Below are positions 18,009 to 21,343 of a stretch of 64,000 nt of DNA, one piece after another. This stretch comes from an uncultured Alphaproteobacteria bacterium. GTDB lineage: Bacteria; Pseudomonadota; Alphaproteobacteria; Methylaequorales; Methylaequoraceae. Numbering within the stretch: the stretch's first letter is position 1; every line of letters starts with the position of its first letter. Made by a program: the position numbers and the translations under genes. The stretch covers positions 84,089-148,088 of the forward strand of contig CACCYL010000002.1 in the NCBI GenBank assembly GCA_902550225.1, in the 5' to 3' direction. The notes beneath the pieces are model-generated. The model was given only the letters and a program-made list of their open reading frames with translations, had not been told where the DNA came from and did no database searches.

Positions 18009-18456
18009 ACAATTTGTAAAATAGGCGTATAAAGGTTGTTTACATTATCTGCAATTAGCAAAAGTTGTGAGCTATAATCAGCTGTAAACTTTTCTTTTAT
18101 TTCAGGAAATTTTTTTAAAAAGAACCATAAGGTAAAAAAACATGACCAAAATATAATTAAAAATCGTCTGACAATTTTTGGTTTAACTTCAATTTTCATG
18201 GGACTTAATTACTCAGTTAGATGTTATATACATTATTTATGACTGATTATAAATAATTCAATAATTTCTTATGAGTTTTATTAAATTACTCTGTTTGAAA
18301 TAGAAACATAGTTGAAATCTTCTAAGTTTTGTAATATTTTTTGTTTAAAAATGAGTTATATTTTTATATCTGTTTTGATTTAAAAAATATAAGGTTTTAG
18401 AGTTTAGTAGTGAACATTAATTGAAAGCGCTATTATCTAAATCAAACTCGGATGAA

Positions 18457-18495
18457 GGAGAGATGGCAGAGTGGTCGAATGCACCGGTCTTGAAA
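18457..18495 (+). pseudogene. tRNA-Ser 5' half-copy (acceptor and D arm through the anticodon loop), remnant of the original target gene
   Basis: 37 of 39 positions are identical to the 5' half of the intact tRNA-Ser at 20751, and identity stops exactly at the anticodon loop. About 150 bp of upstream flank is also homologous. Confidence 0.75.
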
Positions 18496-18627
18496 GACAA
18501 CAGAGTCACTCCGAACACCCTTATTTGCTTGAGTTTTAAATAAAAATATAGTCGACAACATAGTCGACAACATATATTATCAAATATTCTGTACTAACCT
18601 TACACAGATTATTTAACTAATAGTATT

Positions 18628-19188
18628 TTGACTCGAACTTACATGGAAAACTCGCTCAAAAACATTATTAGAAACTATCAAAATTCTTTTAAAAGGAAAG
18701 TCTACACAAATGAAAATAACGATGTCGACTTATTAATGAACGTTTTTGGTATAACTCCCGATTTAAAGCGAGAAAATCGACAATATTGGGGACGAGAACT
18801 GGGAATGTGCTGGCAACTTTTAGTCATAGAATTATTCAGGAACACAAGAGATGATTTTGGTGCTGCCATAAAAATCGGTTCAGACGAACCCTGTGACCTA
18901 ACTGCCGGAACCTATGCGATTGACACAAAATATAGAATAGGGTCAGGAGACTCTGGTACGTTGAAAAAATTTAAATCTTACGGTCCTAAATTAAAAGAAA
19001 TGGGTTACTCACCAATATTTTTAATAGTTAGAGAAGATAACTTACCTGCGGCGATTACTGCTTGTCGAGTTGGTGGTTGGAGGGTATTAACCGGGAAAGA
19101 TACTTTTAAATTTATCAGAGAATTTACCAATTTTGATCTGGAGCAGTTTCTGCTCGACAATCGTGAAAATTTCAACGTTGAACGTTAA
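18628..19188 (+). CDS. type II restriction endonuclease candidate (PD-(D/E)xK fold)
   Basis: PCD-x9-DTK motif. The gene is convergent with the methyltransferase and overlaps it by 4 nt tail to tail. GC content is elevated. Confidence 0.55.
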   Translation: MTRTYMENSLKNIIRNYQNSFKRKVYTNENNDVDLLMNVFGITPDLKRENRQYWGRELGMCWQLLVIELFRNTRDDFGAAIKIGSDEPCDLTAGTYAIDTKYRIGSGDSGTLKKFKSYGPKLKEMGYSPIFLIVREDNLPAAITACRVGGWRVLTGKDTFKFIREFTNFDLEQFLLDNRENFNVER

Positions 19189-20078
19189 AAAAGAGAATAA
19201 TTGAGTCTTTCCCTGATTATCTCTACATACTTCTTTTCAATCTCAATTCCAAGATATCCTCTACCTAAATGTTTCGCAGCGAGCAGAGTTGTTCCAGAAC
19301 CAGCAAAAGGATCTATTACCACATTTTGAGTTCCTTCTGGAACAAGTATGCTTACTAATTTTTCCATTAATGATAGAGGTTTTACAGTACAATGCACATT
19401 GAACTCTTCCTTTTTGTCTCTTTGAATATTCTCTAAAATATTTGACTGAAATCCTCCATTCTTTAAAGTTGTATTGAAAACTCCAACTCCGTACTTCATT
19501 AATGTTTGTGAATAATTTTGTTCTAAAGGTTTTTGAACCAAGACAATGCCCTCCCATTCATTCCGAAAACAACTATGCCAACCCTGCCACCGATAATGTT
19601 CCTGGTAACCTTTACGTTTTAACTGAGATGCAGCGTTGTAACCCTTTGGGATGCCACTCGAACGTCGATACACAAGTATATCGCGAGCATAAAAACCTGC
19701 CTTTTCGAGGGCAACTTGGACATGCGCCAGTGTCCGGGTACTGTTAAATACAGCAACGGGACTTCCCGGTTTCAAGATTCTATAAAGTTCTTCTGACCAT
19801 TTCAGACACCACTCCTCATAATCAAGTATGTTTGACCGATTTTTATCATACCATCGCTTATTCCTTACCCCACCAGCAAGACCACTTCCGTAAGGTATGT
19901 TTTTCACTAATGTGTTACTTTTTTTGGACCTACTAATCCTTCGTTCAACTTCCTCAGTATCCCAATTTTTTCCGATAAATTCATAGTTATATGGAGGATC
20001 AGTGATACAAGCAGACACCGTATCAGGTTCAAATTGCTTCATGATCTTGATGCAATCTCCATTAAATATCTTATCCAA
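19185..20078 (-). CDS. DNA methyltransferase, beta-class N6A/N4C (DPPY ... FAGSGTT)
   Basis: Motif IV DPPY is N-terminal and motif I DPFAGSGTT is C-terminal. This is the ParB-less beta-class arrangement, as in M.RsrI and M.PvuII. GC content is markedly higher than in the surroundings. Confidence 0.85.
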   Translation of the reverse strand: MDKIFNGDCIKIMKQFEPDTVSACITDPPYNYEFIGKNWDTEEVERRISRSKKSNTLVKNIPYGSGLAGGVRNKRWYDKNRSNILDYEEWCLKWSEELYRILKPGSPVAVFNSTRTLAHVQVALEKAGFYARDILVYRRSSGIPKGYNAASQLKRKGYQEHYRWQGWHSCFRNEWEGIVLVQKPLEQNYSQTLMKYGVGVFNTTLKNGGFQSNILENIQRDKKEEFNVHCTVKPLSLMEKLVSILVPEGTQNVVIDPFAGSGTTLLAAKHLGRGYLGIEIEKKYVEIIRERLNYSLF

Positions 20079-20283
20079 ACCTAATCCTATGTATTTTTAA
20101 ATTAATTTGCTTGAACATATTTTTTCCTTCAACAGAATTGTAAACCCAATTTTAAACCAGATCTCTAAAATACAATTACCAAAATTTTATGAAAAAGTAT
20201 CCTACTTTCCATTTTTTAAAAATTGTAATCTCAAATAATCAAACTCACCATTTTTTTTTCTAAAACTTTTTAGAATTAACTTT

Positions 20284-20640
20284 TCAGTTCATTGAAGTCT
20301 TCAATTTTTTTGAAATTACACATAACCCCTTTGACTTATGAATAATTTTATAACTATCAAATCTTTTTAAACTCTTCTTGTATTTGTCTAATGTCATCCA
20401 GACCAATTTTGGAGTATACTGATTACCTGTAGGAGATTTTAAATTGGAACTATTAAGATAATCACTGATCTCAACTGATGACTTTCCCTCATCACTTAGG
20501 TACTTTATAAGTTTCAATCTATTTTCCCTTTTTGAATTTAAATTAAATATAGATAATTTTTGGGTTTCGATAACAACTCTGAATTTAATGAAAAGGGTGT
20601 TTAAACGCACCCTACCCCCCTTTTTCCTAATCACATTCAA
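20284..20640 (-). pseudogene. remnant of a large serine recombinase (recombinase domain only)
   Basis: YLSDEGKSSVEISDYLN...KSPTGNQYTPKLVWMTLDKYKK matches the HTH/recombinase-domain signature (G.S...IA..LN..G..TP.G..W....V..IL.N..Y). The N-terminal catalytic resolvase domain is missing and a G6 tract lies at the 5' end. Confidence 0.5.
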
Positions 20641-20750
20641 AATAGAATCATAGGTTGAAATCTAGGAAGATTTGTAATAGTTTCTTGATTTAAAATCTGT
20701 GATATTTTATGTCTTTTTTTTGATGTAAAATATGTGATTTTAGGGTCAAC

Positions 20751-20840
20751 GGAGAGTTGGCAGAGTGGTCGAATGCATCGGTCTTGAAAACCGACAAGGA
20801 TGCAAGTCCTTCTAGGGTTCGAATCCCTAACTCTCCGCCA
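20751..20840 (+). tRNA. tRNA-Ser (anticodon UGA)
   Basis: Cloverleaf folded by hand: acceptor GGAGAGT/ACTCTCC, anticodon stem TCGGT/ACCGA with loop CTTGAAA, a long variable arm, T arm TAGGG-TTCGAAT-CCCTA, discriminator G and an encoded CCA. Confidence 0.9.
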
Positions 20841-21172
20841 TTTTAGAGGTCATTAGTCGACAATATAGTCGACAACATTAAAAACCCTGTCCTCTGTAAC
20901 GCAGACTCACATTGACTTATAGAAGTTTTATTAGTTGAATAAACTAGTCTTGAAAACCGGCAAAGATGCAAGTCTTTCCAGGGTTCGAATCCCTGACTCT
21001 CCGCCACTTTTGGGGTCATTAGTCGACAACATAGTCGACAACACTAAAAACTCTATCCTCTGAAAGACAGACTCACATTGATTTGTAGAAAATATATTAG
21101 TTGAATAATCTGGTCTTGAAAACCGGCAAGGATGCAAGTCCTTCCAGGGTTCGAATCCCTGTCTCTCCGCCA
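20781..21172 (+). repeat. 166-bp tandem repeat (about 2.4 units). Each unit begins at the tRNA-Ser anticodon loop and contains the tRNA 3' half plus a GTCATTAGTCGACAAYATAGTCGACAACA spacer
   Basis: The period is exactly 166 bp (20781, 20947, 21113). The tRNA 3' halves recur at 20947-21006 and 21113-21172. Confidence 0.85.
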
Positions 21173-21343
21173 CTAACTCTAACCCTATTATTTCTGTGCT
21201 TCTACGGGCTTTAAATTGGCTTTTATACCTAATCATTATACCAAAACTAGATACCCCACCCCCATATATTTTTACCCGGGGGAGGAAAAATACCCCGGCT
21301 TGTTTTGATTGTTATAGTGTCTTAATAATTTTAAATTCAATAT

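What the first reader, a model, noticed from the sequence alone, without database searches (positions are those of the whole stretch)
18303..21172. tRNA-Ser(UGA) acted as an integration hotspot: a 5' half-copy, a 2.3-kb islet, the intact tRNA, then tandem 3' halves
An intact tRNA-Ser sits at 20751-20840. About 2.3 kb upstream there is a second copy of its 5' half only. That copy (18457-18495) matches at 37 of 39 nt and ends exactly at the anticodon loop. Roughly 150 bp of its upstream flank is also homologous to the flank of the intact gene (18303-18456 versus 20646-20750, diverged). Between the two copies lie a higher-GC restriction-modification pair and a recombinase remnant. Downstream of the intact tRNA, the 3' half from the anticodon loop onward recurs twice. 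The 24-bp motif TAGTCGACAACATAGTCGACAACA, which is two direct GTCGACAAC half-sites, occurs next to each junction: 18549-18572, and in each of the three spacers at about 20856-20879, 21021-21044 and 21187-21210. This layout is what site-specific integration with crossover in the anticodon loop leaves behind when the element supplies a replacement promoter and 5' tRNA half. It is a compact record of repeated integration events in a streamlined genome.
Basis: seen in the sequence. Interest (0 to 1): 0.8.

Follow-up and report, generated by a model that had tools for sequence, protein, structure and literature searches.

The report
Split tRNA-Ser replaced by element's copy
A mobile element cut this marine bacterium's serine tRNA gene in two at the anticodon loop and left its own working copy between the halves, a strategy shown experimentally so far only in phages of actinobacteria.

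Summary
The history can be reconstructed because all four att sites were found.

- **Empty site (attB):** three related genomes (L001, L004, L005) have one tRNA-Ser(UGA). It equals window 18457-18495 plus 21122-21172. So 2,626 bp (18496-21121) lie inside the anticodon loop.
- **attP:** more than 13 marine contigs carry it on an ~11.3-kb element. The order is SprT-like gene, complete tRNA-Ser(UGA), 13 nt, 2x TAGTCGACAACA, 68-70 nt of decayed promoter flank and 5' half, core GTCTTGAAA, 53 nt, 2x TAGTCGACAACA, tyrosine integrase.
- **No rebuilt tRNA:** neither junction restores a tRNA. The only functional gene (20751-20840) is the element's own on both halves, and every stem difference from the host allele is compensatory.
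- **166-bp period:** this is the element's spacing from tRNA loop to attP core. The two units match two element variants (about 95% each). That implies a second element integrated into the first element's tRNA.
- **Backbone loss:** the integrase and ~10.6 kb of backbone were replaced by a horizontally mobile R-M cassette plus a truncated small ORF.

The mechanism matches "tRNA-dependent lysogeny" (mBio 2024). It differs in being on a non-phage-like element of reversed (5'-side) ancestry. The claimed fourth motif copy is absent, and the "recombinase remnant" is not an integrase.

The parts
18298..18456 (+). Original host upstream flank (promoter region) of tRNA-Ser(UGA)
   Evidence: Collinear at 95-97% with L001, L004 and L005 up to 18495. 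A sigma70-like TTGAAA-17-TATTTT lies at 18312-18340.
18457..18486 (+). Host 5' half of tRNA-Ser(UGA), the displaced B arm of attL
   Evidence: Identical to the 5' half of the single tRNA in the empty site L001. Differs from the intact gene at A7 and C27.
18487..18495 (+). Common core GTCTTGAAA at attL (2 nt of the anticodon stem plus the 7-nt anticodon loop)
   Evidence: The only segment shared by attB, attP, attL and attR (alignment A3).
18496..18548 (+). P' arm spacer of the element
   Evidence: 97% identical to the free element (L035 8621-8733; A4). Not significantly tRNA-like (z=1.2).
18549..18572 (+). P' arm motif, 2x TAGTCGACAACA: putative integrase arm-type sites overlapping a promoter-like site for int
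   Evidence: TCGACA-17-TATTAT at 18552-18580 matches 10 of 12. In free elements the int ATG follows about 17 nt later.
18573..18612 (+). int leader and the first ~6 codons of the tyrosine integrase gene (ATG mutated to CTG, 3-nt deletion). This is the left deletion breakpoint.
   Evidence: Alignment A4 with L028, L029 and L035. Homology is lost after about 18612.
18643..19188 (+). Type II restriction endonuclease candidate (181 aa, ApaLI-like family)
   Evidence: 1665 homologs. Several are named 'restriction endonuclease' and some hit PF09499. PADLOC REase_II match is weak. No direct Pfam, PHROG or NCBIfam hit.
19185..20078 (-). N6/N4 DNA methyltransferase (297 aa), convergent partner of the REase
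   Evidence: PF01555 122.7 bits. PADLOC MTase_II 167 bits. The cassette 18627-20118 is 88.5% identical to L046, which comes from a 39%-GC genome.
20284..20595 (-). 5'-truncated small winged-helix-like ORF (a family of ~105-135 aa with weak PF07508 similarity). Not part of the tRNA-targeting element.
   Evidence: 48 homologs. PF07508 is below threshold in 13 of 14 members. The model has three helices and a hairpin with no significant fold match. Residues 1-18 of the 118-aa ORF are the antisense of the element's SprT terminator region. The family is absent from the 11-kb element.
20599..20645 (+). Last ~7 codons of the element's SprT-like gene plus its terminator hairpin. This is the right deletion breakpoint.
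   Evidence: Alignment A5. Terminator-like stem at 20594-20613. The 200-aa ORF in L029 has a weak SprT-like hit.
20640..20750 (+). Element-borne upstream flank of its tRNA gene, homologous to the host's distal flank (-159 to -54)
   Evidence: z=13.9 against 18298-18403. 96.5% identical to L027, L029, L036 and L039-41.
20751..20840 (+). Element-encoded, functional tRNA-Ser(UGA), the only intact copy at the locus
   Evidence: ARAGORN. Rfam 60 bits. Identical to the tRNA of L029 and L027. T7:A66, T27:A43 and T49:A65 against host A:T, C:G and C:G. All stem changes are compensatory.
20854..20877 (+). P arm motif (2x TAGTCGACAAYA) of the L029-type element
20878..20946 (+). P arm of the L029-type element: host-like proximal flank plus a decayed 5' half
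   Evidence: Segment 20790-20946 is 94.9% identical to L029 and 87% to L028. In-register identity of the decayed 5' half is 15/30, reached by 2 of 10,000 shuffles.
20947..20955 (+). Core GTCTTGAAA: junction between the attP of the L029-type element and the anticodon loop of the resident L028-type element's tRNA
20956..21006 (+). Displaced 3' half of an L028-type element's own tRNA-Ser
   Evidence: 51/51 identical to the 3' half of the L028 tRNA, against 46/51 to L029. A compensatory G:C to A:U change in the variable arm shows it comes from a working gene.
21020..21043 (+). P arm motif of the L028-type element
21044..21112 (+). P arm of the L028-type element (proximal-flank-like sequence plus decayed 5' half)
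   Evidence: Segment 20956-21112 is 94.3% identical to L028. Spacer against host -50 to -1: z=6.7. Decayed 5' half 14/30 in register. ARAGORN calls 21085-21172 a tRNA, but Rfam gives only 27 bits (tRNA-Sec model), below gathering.
21113..21121 (+). Core GTCTTGAAA at attR
21122..21172 (+). Host 3' half of the original tRNA-Ser(UGA), followed by host downstream DNA
   Evidence: [quoted passage not shown] The alignment to the empty sites resumes at 21112.

Best explanation
The locus is the decayed, locked-in remnant of two nested integrations by an ~11.3-kb integrative and probably self-replicating element of marine Alphaproteobacteria.

**The element's att region.** It has a divergent tyrosine integrase. 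Its attP shares only 9-10 bp (G)GTCTTGAAA with the host tRNA-Ser(UGA). This core is the last 2-3 nt of the 5' strand of the anticodon stem plus the anticodon loop. Paired 12-bp direct repeats (TAGTCGACAACA x2) sit at about -92 and +54 from the core. They are probably arm-type integrase sites. The right-hand pair overlaps the int promoter.

**What integration does.** Strand exchange in the core splits the host gene, and neither junction rebuilds a tRNA. The element carries a complete tRNA-Ser(UGA) gene of its own, with a promoter-bearing flank, 157 nt upstream of the attP core. That gene takes over decoding.

**History inferred for this genome.**
1. An L028-type element integrated into the host gene.
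2. An L029-type element then integrated into the first element's tRNA, which is a perfect attB. This produced the 166-bp tandem units, because 157 nt plus the 9-bp core equals 166 bp.
3. The integrase genes and ~10.6 kb of backbone were lost and replaced by a horizontally acquired type II R-M cassette plus a fragment of another island gene.

**Consequence.** The bacterium now depends on a foreign tRNA-Ser gene and has no integrase at this locus to restore its own.

**Shown versus inferred.** Shown: the four att sites, the insertion boundaries, the identity of each segment and the covariation of the tRNA alleles. Inferred: the order of events, the arm-site function, the essentiality of the tRNA and replication of the element.
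For: **attB**
- L001, L004 and L005 (95-97% identical flanks) have one tRNA-Ser(UGA) built from window 18457-18495 plus 21122-21172.
- The blastn alignment stops at 18495 and resumes at 21112.

**attP**
- A metagenome scan for the motif found L027, L028 and L029. The integrase cluster P0049 gave L035-L044.
- All carry tRNA-Ser, motif, 155 bp, motif, int. The P and P' arms are contiguous around the core.

**attL and attR**
- These are exact recombinants of attB and attP (A3).

**Integrase**
- PF13102 scores 29.3 bits, above its cut-off. PF00589 scores 23.5, just below.
- R256, R362 and Y396 are invariant and K287 is nearly invariant (at least 90%) in 12 homologs.

**Junctions are not tRNAs**
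- Rfam gives no hit for attL and 27 bits, below gathering, for attR.

**The element tRNA is functional**
- Among 6 distinct alleles, 100% of cloverleaf cells pair.
- 4 of 4 variable stem positions are compensatory double changes.

**The 166-bp period**
- The distance from tRNA loop to attP core is 157 nt in L028, L029 and L035 (158 in L038).
- Window 20790-20946 is 94.9% identical to the L029 type. Window 20956-21112 is 94.3% identical to the L028 type. The 3' halves match at 51/51 in each case.

**Free circular or concatemeric form**
- L035 repeats with an 11,247-bp period.

**Ancestral design**
- L047 is an intact ~10.27-kb integrated relative in tRNA-Ser(CGA).
- It has a 49-nt 5'-half direct repeat and its own paired arm repeats, GACCTACCAAC x2, on both arms.

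**Precedent for the mechanism**
- PMC10865867.

**Independent contigs**
- L045, L013 and L014 confirm attL plus the R-M genes.
Against: - No contig shows an intact L029-type element integrated with both junctions. All integrase-bearing contigs show attP, so integration of the intact element is inferred from the window's remnant and from the relative L047.
- The attR side and the middle unit (20947-21172) have no independent confirming contig.
- Whether the genome has a second tRNA-Ser(UGA) elsewhere is unknown, because only 64 kb is visible. Dependence on the element's tRNA is therefore inferred.
- Arm-site function of the motif rests only on position and conservation. The P' arm is conserved throughout, so only the P-arm copy gives a contrast with its surroundings.
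- PF00589 is slightly below its curated cut-off for this integrase. The usual His of HxxR is a Tyr.
- How the full tRNA gene came to lie between the distal and proximal parts of a host-like flank is unexplained.
Confidence: 0.85

Rival explanations
1. Canonical half-supplying elements acted here. One element brought a promoter plus a 5' half that joined the host 3' half to give the intact tRNA. Other elements each brought a 3' half.
For: - The 5' half copy ends at the anticodon loop, and flank homology exists.
- A relative with a 42% identical integrase (L047) really works this way.
Against: - The 3' half of the intact tRNA is not the host's. It differs from the host's at 4 of 51 positions, is 51/51 identical to the L029 element gene, and pairs with the element-type 5' half through compensatory changes.
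- Free elements carry a whole tRNA gene plus a separate core.
- The sequence left of each core in the array is a decayed, non-functional 5' half.
Confidence: 0.06
2. A single integration. A composite element already carrying both 166-bp units integrated once into the host gene. The composite could have formed earlier, for example as an episomal co-integrate of L028-type and L029-type copies or in a previous host. The mechanism is the same but the history differs.
For: - L035 shows two diverged copies (96%) joined head to tail, so heterologous multimers exist.
- The final layout is equally compatible with this history.
Against: - None of the 14 attP copies sampled (10 distinct sequences) has the extra unit. 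All show exactly two motif pairs 155 bp apart.
Confidence: 0.2
3. Local tandem duplication of the tRNA gene region followed by decay and an unrelated R-M insertion. No site-specific recombination is involved.
For: - The units are head to tail with a regular 166-bp period.
- They contain flank-like sequence.
Against: - The breaks with the empty sites fall exactly at the same 9-bp core on both sides.
- Each unit matches a different free-element variant better than the units match each other (about 95% against 84-87%).
- The P' arm and the start of int lie at the left junction.
Confidence: 0.02
4. Assembly chimera. The window joins reads from a chromosome and from the abundant free element across the shared tRNA sequence.
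For: - The element is abundant. Its integrase is listed in 60 blocks of the collection.
- It shares about 90 bp with the host gene.
- Short-read contigs break in this region.
Against: - L045 (Tara) spans host flank, 5' half, core, P' arm and REase at 100% identity.
- L013 and L014 span from the P' arm to the small ORF.
- The R-M replacement is not present in any free element.
- A chimera would not produce precise reciprocal attL and attR junctions.
Confidence: 0.03

Closest known systems
tRNA-dependent lysogeny of actinobacteriophages (Fionnbharth, LeBron, Cain, Gaia and others; Guerrero-Bustamante & Hatfull, mBio 2024, PMC10865867). The Lj965 prophage of Lactobacillus johnsonii is a suspected case.
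   Same: - A tyrosine integrase.
- attB lies inside a host tRNA gene.
- The common core is only 8-17 bp (9-10 bp here), so no tRNA is rebuilt at either junction.
- The element carries a tRNA with the same anticodon that can replace the disrupted one.
- Paired putative arm sites flank the core.
- Close relatives with related integrases still rebuild the tRNA (Boilgate and Ximenita there, L047 here).
   Different: - The host is a streamlined marine alphaproteobacterium.
- The carrier is an ~11-kb element with no recognisable virion genes.
- The relic of homology lies on the 5' side (promoter flank plus 5' half), so the ancestor had the reversed orientation. The mycobacteriophage relatives rebuild the 3' half.
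- The tRNA gene sits only 13 nt from the P-arm sites, so nested integration into it builds 166-bp arrays.
- Requirement for the tRNA has not been tested.
Integrative elements with reversed target orientation, which supply the promoter and 5' part of the tRNA gene (Zhao & Williams 2002, J Bacteriol, 'Integrative genetic element that reverses the usual target gene orientation'). The title is confirmed as cited in PMC6563490. The content is from my own knowledge.
   Same: - A displaced host 5' fragment lies at one end.
- An element-derived promoter flank and 5'-half-like sequence lie next to the core at the other end.
- The relative L047 is a clean example.
   Different: - In the window's element the 5' half next to the core has decayed (14-15 of 30 nt identical).
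- A separate complete gene does the job.
Tycheposons of Prochlorococcus (Hackl et al., bioRxiv 10.1101/2020.12.28.424599) and marine virion-encapsidated integrative mobile elements, VEIMEs (PMC9618062)
   Same: - Small marine integrative elements (about 10 kb) that target tRNA genes, including tRNA-Ser(TGA).
- They carry a tyrosine recombinase, often a small serine recombinase, and a primase/helicase-type replication gene.
- Successive integrations and degenerate remnants build islands next to the tRNA.
- Concatemeric forms occur.
   Different: - Those papers describe partial-tRNA att repeats of about 40 nt that preserve the gene, not disruption plus replacement.
- Membership of this integrase in their clades was not tested.
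- The element was not found in IMG/VR.

Membership tests
tRNA-dependent lysogeny / integration (PMC10865867) | Tyrosine-family integrase encoded next to attP | tested here: met
   The 420-aa ORF starts about 17 nt after the P' motif. PF13102 scores 29.3 bits (cut-off 22.3). PF00589 scores 23.5 (cut-off 27.1). R256, R362 and Y396 are invariant and K287 is nearly invariant in 12 homologs.
tRNA-dependent lysogeny / integration (PMC10865867) | attB overlaps a host tRNA gene | tested here: met
   Empty sites L001, L004 and L005 against the window. The insertion lies inside the anticodon loop of tRNA-Ser(UGA).
tRNA-dependent lysogeny / integration (PMC10865867) | Short common core (about 8-17 bp), so no functional tRNA is rebuilt at attL or attR | tested here: met
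   The core is GTCTTGAAA (9 bp; 10 bp in the L028 and L035 types). attL has no tRNA hit. attR scores 27 bits, below gathering.
tRNA-dependent lysogeny / integration (PMC10865867) | [quoted passage not shown] | tested here: met
   tRNA-Ser(UGA) is present in every attP-bearing contig long enough to include it. The alleles keep the cloverleaf through compensatory changes.
tRNA-dependent lysogeny / integration (PMC10865867) | The element tRNA is required for survival of integrants, and the host gene is single-copy and essential | not testable with these tools
   Only 64 kb of the genome is visible and no genetics is possible.
tRNA-dependent lysogeny / integration (PMC10865867) | The carrier is a temperate phage | tested here: inconclusive
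   No capsid, terminase or tail hit in Pfam or PHROGs for the element ORFs tested. Most of them are ORFans. The integrase has no tblastn hit in 50,697 phage records.
Reversed-orientation tRNA-integrating element (5' part plus promoter supplied) | The element-borne 5' part next to the core rebuilds a functional tRNA with the host 3' part | tested here: not met
   The sequence left of the core is 14-15/30 identical to the 5' half, and attR is not a tRNA by Rfam. The feature is met in the relative L047.
Reversed-orientation tRNA-integrating element (5' part plus promoter supplied) | A displaced host 5' fragment is left at the far end of the insert | tested here: met
   18457-18495 equals the host 5' half and is followed by the P' arm.
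Tycheposon / VEIME-type marine integrative elements | Integrase belongs to the tycheposon or VEIME tyrosine-recombinase clades | not tested
Tycheposon / VEIME-type marine integrative elements | Replication module (primase/helicase) plus a tRNA-specific integrase on an element of about 5-25 kb | tested here: inconclusive
   The 581-aa ORF scores 27.2 bits on DUF5906 (cut-off 27.6), hits phrog_28855 at E=1.6e-29, and is 27% identical to phage VirE/primase regions. The unit length is 11,247 bp.
Type II restriction-modification system | An adjacent DNA methyltransferase and restriction endonuclease | tested here: met
   MTase: PF01555 122.7 bits and PADLOC MTase_II 167 bits. REase: homologs are named 'restriction endonuclease' and some hit PF09499, but the direct profile hit is only weak. 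The genes converge and overlap by 4 bp.
   There is no PF00239 hit. All 48 homologs are 76-141 aa. PF07508 reaches only E=4.6e-4 at best, below its cut-off. The fold search shows only generic winged-helix similarity.

The most novel reading that the evidence does not exclude
In these streamlined marine bacteria, an element-borne tRNA gene serves two roles. It is an addiction device, and it is a renewable landing pad. Each integration destroys the resident tRNA-Ser gene and installs a new one, which is itself the next attB. Elements can therefore stack by nesting. When the element decays, the host is left permanently dependent on a foreign tRNA allele. This would make small integrative elements drivers of tRNA gene turnover (xenologous replacement of an essential gene). 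It would also create insertions that cannot be lost. The decayed promoter flank and 5' half next to the core, together with relatives that still rebuild the gene, would give the direction of evolution left open in the 2024 phage work: first a reconstituting attP, then gain of a whole tRNA gene, then decay of the attP homology.
Probability: 0.4. Interest if true: 0.72.

Novelty: new variant of a known kind. Interest (0 to 1): 0.62.

Why it matters
**Extends a known strategy.** 'Disrupt the tRNA and bring your own' was demonstrated in 2024 only for actinobacteriophages, and its authors asked how widespread it is. Here it appears in an abundant ~11-kb non-phage-like element of uncultured, genome-streamlined marine Alphaproteobacteria. 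All four att sites are recoverable from public data.

**Shows an evolutionary consequence.** An essential host tRNA gene has been permanently replaced by a foreign allele, and the element's remnant is locked in place.

**Gives a sequence fossil.** The decayed promoter flank and 5' half in the P arm, together with the relative L047, bear on how such systems arise from reconstituting ones.

**Practical warning.** Island finders that look for 'intact tRNA plus displaced fragment' would misplace the boundaries here. ARAGORN also calls a pseudo-tRNA at attR.

Tried and rejected
- **P' spacer as a decayed 3' half.** I first read 18496-18548, just right of the core, as a decayed tRNA 3' half. A local alignment against shuffles gave z=1.2 (339 of 2000 as high) and in-register identity was at chance, so I dropped it.
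- **GTCGAC as the R-M target.** I asked whether GTCGAC (a SalI-type site) in the motif is the target of the neighbouring R-M system. The motif is present in free elements that lack the R-M genes. GTCGAC is not avoided elsewhere in the window: 4 sites against about 3 expected. The REase family is ApaLI-like. I found no link.
- **The 118-aa ORF as an integrase remnant.** Homologs are all small. The fold search gave only generic winged-helix matches (best E=0.13). The PDB profile search found nothing.
- **Searches of viral contigs.** Scans of IMG/VR for the motif and for the integrase found nothing.
- **Exact-protein look-ups.** Look-ups of the 191-aa flank gene, the 118-aa ORF and the 186-aa ORF version found nothing.
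- **Other motif matches.** Fourteen of the 17 metagenome matches to the motif are single hits in 44-66% GC contigs with no tRNA-Ser. I treated them as unrelated.
- **L010 and L012.** These lack the tRNA within 10 kb because synteny breaks there, so they were not usable as empty sites.

Full report
**1. What is in the sequence**

ARAGORN and Rfam agree on one real tRNA, tRNA-Ser(UGA) at 20751-20840 (60 bits against a gathering score of 29).

- A 39-nt 5' half copy at 18457-18495 matches at 37 of 39 nt and stops at the 3' end of the anticodon loop.
- Two extra copies of the loop-to-CCA part lie at 20946-21006 and 21112-21172.
- These copies repeat with a 166-bp period.

The 24-bp motif (2x TAGTCGACAACA) occurs three times (18549, 20854, 21020). 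None is expected by chance. The fourth copy claimed at 21187-21210 does not exist.

The islet is 35-42% G+C against about 27% around it.

**2. The empty site**

The organism is an uncultured marine alphaproteobacterium. Its nearest records are GORG single-cell genomes and MAGs labelled Alphaproteobacteria or Rickettsiales.

An exact-protein look-up of the 130-aa gene downstream of the locus returned a 1.54-Mb contig, L001. A genome scan with the nearby SSF transporter returned L004 and L005.

In all three, the same flanking genes enclose a single tRNA-Ser(UGA). Its 5' half equals window 18457-18495. Its 3' half equals window 21122-21172.

The blastn alignment of the window to these loci ends at 18495 and resumes at 21112. 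So 18496-21121 (2,626 bp) is inserted DNA. The host's own gene is split, with its two halves at the outer edges of the feature.

**3. The intact tRNA is foreign on both halves**

Relative to the host allele it has T7:A66, T27:A43 and T49:A65 instead of A:T, C:G and C:G. The middle 3' half carries a compensated change in the variable arm.

I counted pairs on the cloverleaf across six distinct alleles from hosts and elements:
- 100% of cells pair.
- All four variable stem positions are double compensatory changes.

These are working genes evolving under structural constraint, not hybrids.

**4. The element and its attP**

A metagenome scan for the motif returned three marine contigs, L027-L029. 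The integrase they encode belongs to a 100%-identity cluster seen on more than 47 contigs, ten of which were fetched as L035-L044.

Every contig that reaches far enough upstream shows the same order:
1. An SprT-like gene and its terminator.
2. About 105 nt of flank.
3. A complete tRNA-Ser(UGA).
4. 13 nt.
5. The motif.
6. 68-70 nt.
7. GTCTTGAAA.
8. 53 nt.
9. The motif.
10. About 17 nt, then the ATG of a 420-aa protein.

That protein has a Phage_int_SAM_5 domain above threshold and a Phage_integrase domain just below it. Catalytic-type residues R256, R362 and Y396 are invariant, and K287 is nearly invariant, across 12 homologs.

The window's left junction equals host 5' half, core, then the right side of this site. 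The window's right junction equals the left side of this site, core, then host 3' half (alignment A3). With L001 as attB, this is a complete attB/attP/attL/attR set with a 9-10-bp common core.

The element itself:
- L035, a long-read contig, holds two copies 11,247 bp apart at 96% identity. The free form is therefore circular or concatemeric and about 11.3 kb.
- It also encodes a small serine resolvase.
- It encodes a 581-aa protein with borderline DUF5906 similarity and 27% identity to phage VirE/primase regions.
- Most other ORFs are ORFans, with no recognisable virion genes.
- It is absent from IMG/VR, and the integrase has no match in 50,697 phage records.

**5. The junctions do not rebuild a tRNA**

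Rfam at a permissive threshold finds nothing at attL. At attR it finds only 27 bits (tRNA-Sec model), below gathering. ARAGORN's second 'tRNA-Ser' at 21085-21172 is this pseudo-tRNA.

The sequence left of the core is nevertheless a recognisable fossil:
- Its spacer is homologous to the host's proximal upstream flank (z=6.7, 0/2000).
- The 30 nt next to the core are 14-15/30 identical to the 5' half in fixed register (2 and 23 of 10,000 shuffles).

The 53 nt right of the core are not detectably tRNA-like (z=1.2).

**6. Why the period is 166 bp, and how many events occurred**

In the free elements, the distance from the end of the element tRNA's anticodon loop to the attP core is 157 nt. With the 9-bp core this gives 166 bp.

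The two units match two different element variants:

| Window segment | Best match | Identity | 3' half |
|---|---|---|---|
| 20790-20946 | L029 type | 94.9% | 51/51 |
| 20956-21112 | L028 type | 94.3% | 51/51 |

The most economical history has three steps:
1. An L028-type element integrated into the host gene.
2. An L029-type element integrated into the anticodon loop of the first element's tRNA.
3. The intervening backbone was lost.

Step 2 produces the right-hand array directly, with no further rearrangement. A single integration of a pre-formed composite cannot be excluded. However, none of the 14 sampled attP copies has an extra unit.

**7. Decay of the element**

Homology to the element on the left runs through the P' arm, the motif and the first ~6 codons of int (ATG changed to CTG, with a 3-nt deletion). 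It ends near 18612.

On the right it starts near 20599, with the last ~7 codons of the SprT-like gene and its terminator.

Between these points, about 10.6 kb of backbone is replaced by two things.

(a) A convergent type II R-M pair:
- The MTase is solid.
- The REase belongs to a family of more than 1,600 proteins that sources call restriction endonuclease, some hitting RE_ApaLI.
- The cassette 18627-20118 is 88.5% identical to one in a 39%-GC genome (L046). This explains the G+C bump and shows horizontal mobility.

(b) A 5'-truncated small ORF:
- Its family (48 homologs of 76-141 aa) has only sub-threshold similarity to the 'Recombinase' domain of large serine recombinases.
- It has a winged-helix-like model.
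- It is not part of the 11-kb element.

The true integrase remnant is the ~20 nt at 18590-18612.

Independent contigs reproduce this decayed form. L045 (Tara) is 100% identical over 18445-19607. L013-L015 cover 18483-20415.

**8. The motif**

The paired 12-bp direct repeats lie at about -92 to -69 and +54 to +77 from the core.

They are invariant in five distinct attP variants, while the P-arm spacer beside them varies.

The relative L047 has the same architecture with a different repeat, GACCTACCAAC x2, on each arm.

The P' pair overlaps the best sigma70-like site in the region (TCGACA-17-TATTAT), just upstream of int.

Arm-type integrase sites that double as an int operator are the best reading. 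This is inference.

**9. Relatives and direction of evolution**

L047 lies in a 944-kb contig, and its integrase is 42% identical. It is an intact ~10.27-kb integrated element in tRNA-Ser(CGA):
- A 5'-half copy plus P' arm plus int lies on the left.
- The complete tRNA, preceded by the arm repeats, lies on the right.
- A 49-nt direct repeat is 96% identical.
- There is no extra tRNA gene.

The L029-type attP has the same layout but a decayed 5' half, with a whole tRNA gene 13 nt upstream of the arm sites. This fits one of the scenarios raised in PMC10865867: gaining a cognate tRNA relaxes selection on the attP homology.

**10. Comparison with the literature**

Guerrero-Bustamante & Hatfull (mBio 2024, PMC10865867) define tRNA-dependent lysogeny by four features:
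- A tyrosine integrase.
- An attB in a tRNA gene.
- A core of 8-17 bp that does not rebuild the tRNA.
- A phage-encoded cognate tRNA that is needed for lysogen survival.

The first three structural features and the presence of a cognate tRNA are met here. The requirement for the tRNA is untestable in silico. The carrier does not look like a phage.

Tycheposons and VEIMEs are the closest described element types in marine bacteria. They are reported with gene-preserving partial-tRNA repeats. Clade membership was not tested.

**11. Verdict**

The general interpretation (an integration hotspot with crossover in the anticodon loop and repeated events) is right.

The principle itself was published in 2024, so I rate this a new variant of a known kind rather than categorically new.

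Caveats:
- No intact integrated L029-type copy was seen.
- The right-hand units lack independent confirmation.
- Single-copy status of the tRNA is assumed.

Noticed in passing
L002 1170-1289 (corresponds to window ~21150-21260): In this Tara contig only the last ~22 nt of the tRNA-Ser 3' end precede the host downstream flank. Upstream is a T-arm-like but different sequence (CAGGGCTTTTGAATGGTAATCCCTG). This suggests a second kind of element junction, with crossover in or after the T loop, at the same tRNA.
   Followed up: partly
window 21284-21341; L004 5986-9243; L010 and L012 3220-6130: A 3.3-kb block lies between the tRNA's downstream flank and the 130-aa membrane-protein gene in L004, L010 and L012. 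It holds an O-acetylhomoserine sulfhydrylase-like gene and a flavin monooxygenase-like gene. It is absent from the window, L001 and L005. This is a separate presence/absence polymorphism of metabolic genes beside the hotspot.
   Followed up: partly
window 21173-21270 versus L001 10450-10548: The ~100 bp immediately after tRNA-Ser exists in two unrelated-looking alleles. The window, L004 and L002 share one. L001 and L005 share the other. Both rejoin at the TTTTTACCCGGGGGAGG hairpin. This may be an older scar.
   Followed up: no
L017 2040-2380; L016 1383-1673 and 4551-4883; L046 10019-10759; protein alignment A2: The small winged-helix ORF family begins right at the glmS stop codon in L017, at a conserved TGGAATAACTTTAGAAAA. 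In P0048 it runs into prmA. It occurs in two copies in L016 and L046 and is almost always on very short contigs. It may mark the edge of another, undescribed island or mobile module.
   Followed up: partly
L046 8045-9537 versus window 18627-20118: The R-M cassette is 88.5% identical at the DNA level in a genome of 39% G+C (GCA_902515065.1). There it sits next to a 162-aa ORF and two of the small PF07508-like ORFs. The R-M genes and the small ORF seem to travel together.
   Followed up: partly
L035 1-19989: This long-read contig consists of two head-to-tail copies of the element that are only 96% identical, with a period of 11,247 bp. It is either a heterologous multimer or a population-consensus artefact.
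   Followed up: no
L036 9655-13276: In this contig, gamma-glutamyltranspeptidase and metallo-beta-lactamase-fold genes follow the element's 110-aa ORF where other copies continue with element genes. They may be cargo or a chromosomal junction of another kind.
   Followed up: no
window 18298-18456 versus 20640-20750 and 20878-20916: The host-like upstream region is split in the element. Its distal part (-159 to -54) precedes the element's tRNA gene. Its proximal part (-50 to -1) sits in the P arm after the motif. The motif itself aligns with host TAGTGAACA at about -62. How a whole tRNA gene came to lie between the two parts is unexplained.
   Followed up: partly
window 21085-21172: ARAGORN reports a second tRNA-Ser(UGA) here. 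It is the attR hybrid (decayed 5' half plus host 3' half) and fails the Rfam threshold. This is a trap for automated annotation.
   Followed up: yes
L048 9845-11212; L047 8437-9705: A more distant integrase homolog (35%) sits directly downstream of an intact tRNA-Met, which is the usual orientation. In L047 a resolvase and a second, slightly different pair of repeats (ACCTACCTACTT x2) lie left of the displaced 5' half. This suggests an older tandem element there too.
   Followed up: no
L007 700-9927: In this more distant relative, 9.2 kb separates the 130-aa gene from the SSF transporter gene, against about 0.36 kb in the window. This is another variable spot in the neighbourhood.
   Followed up: no
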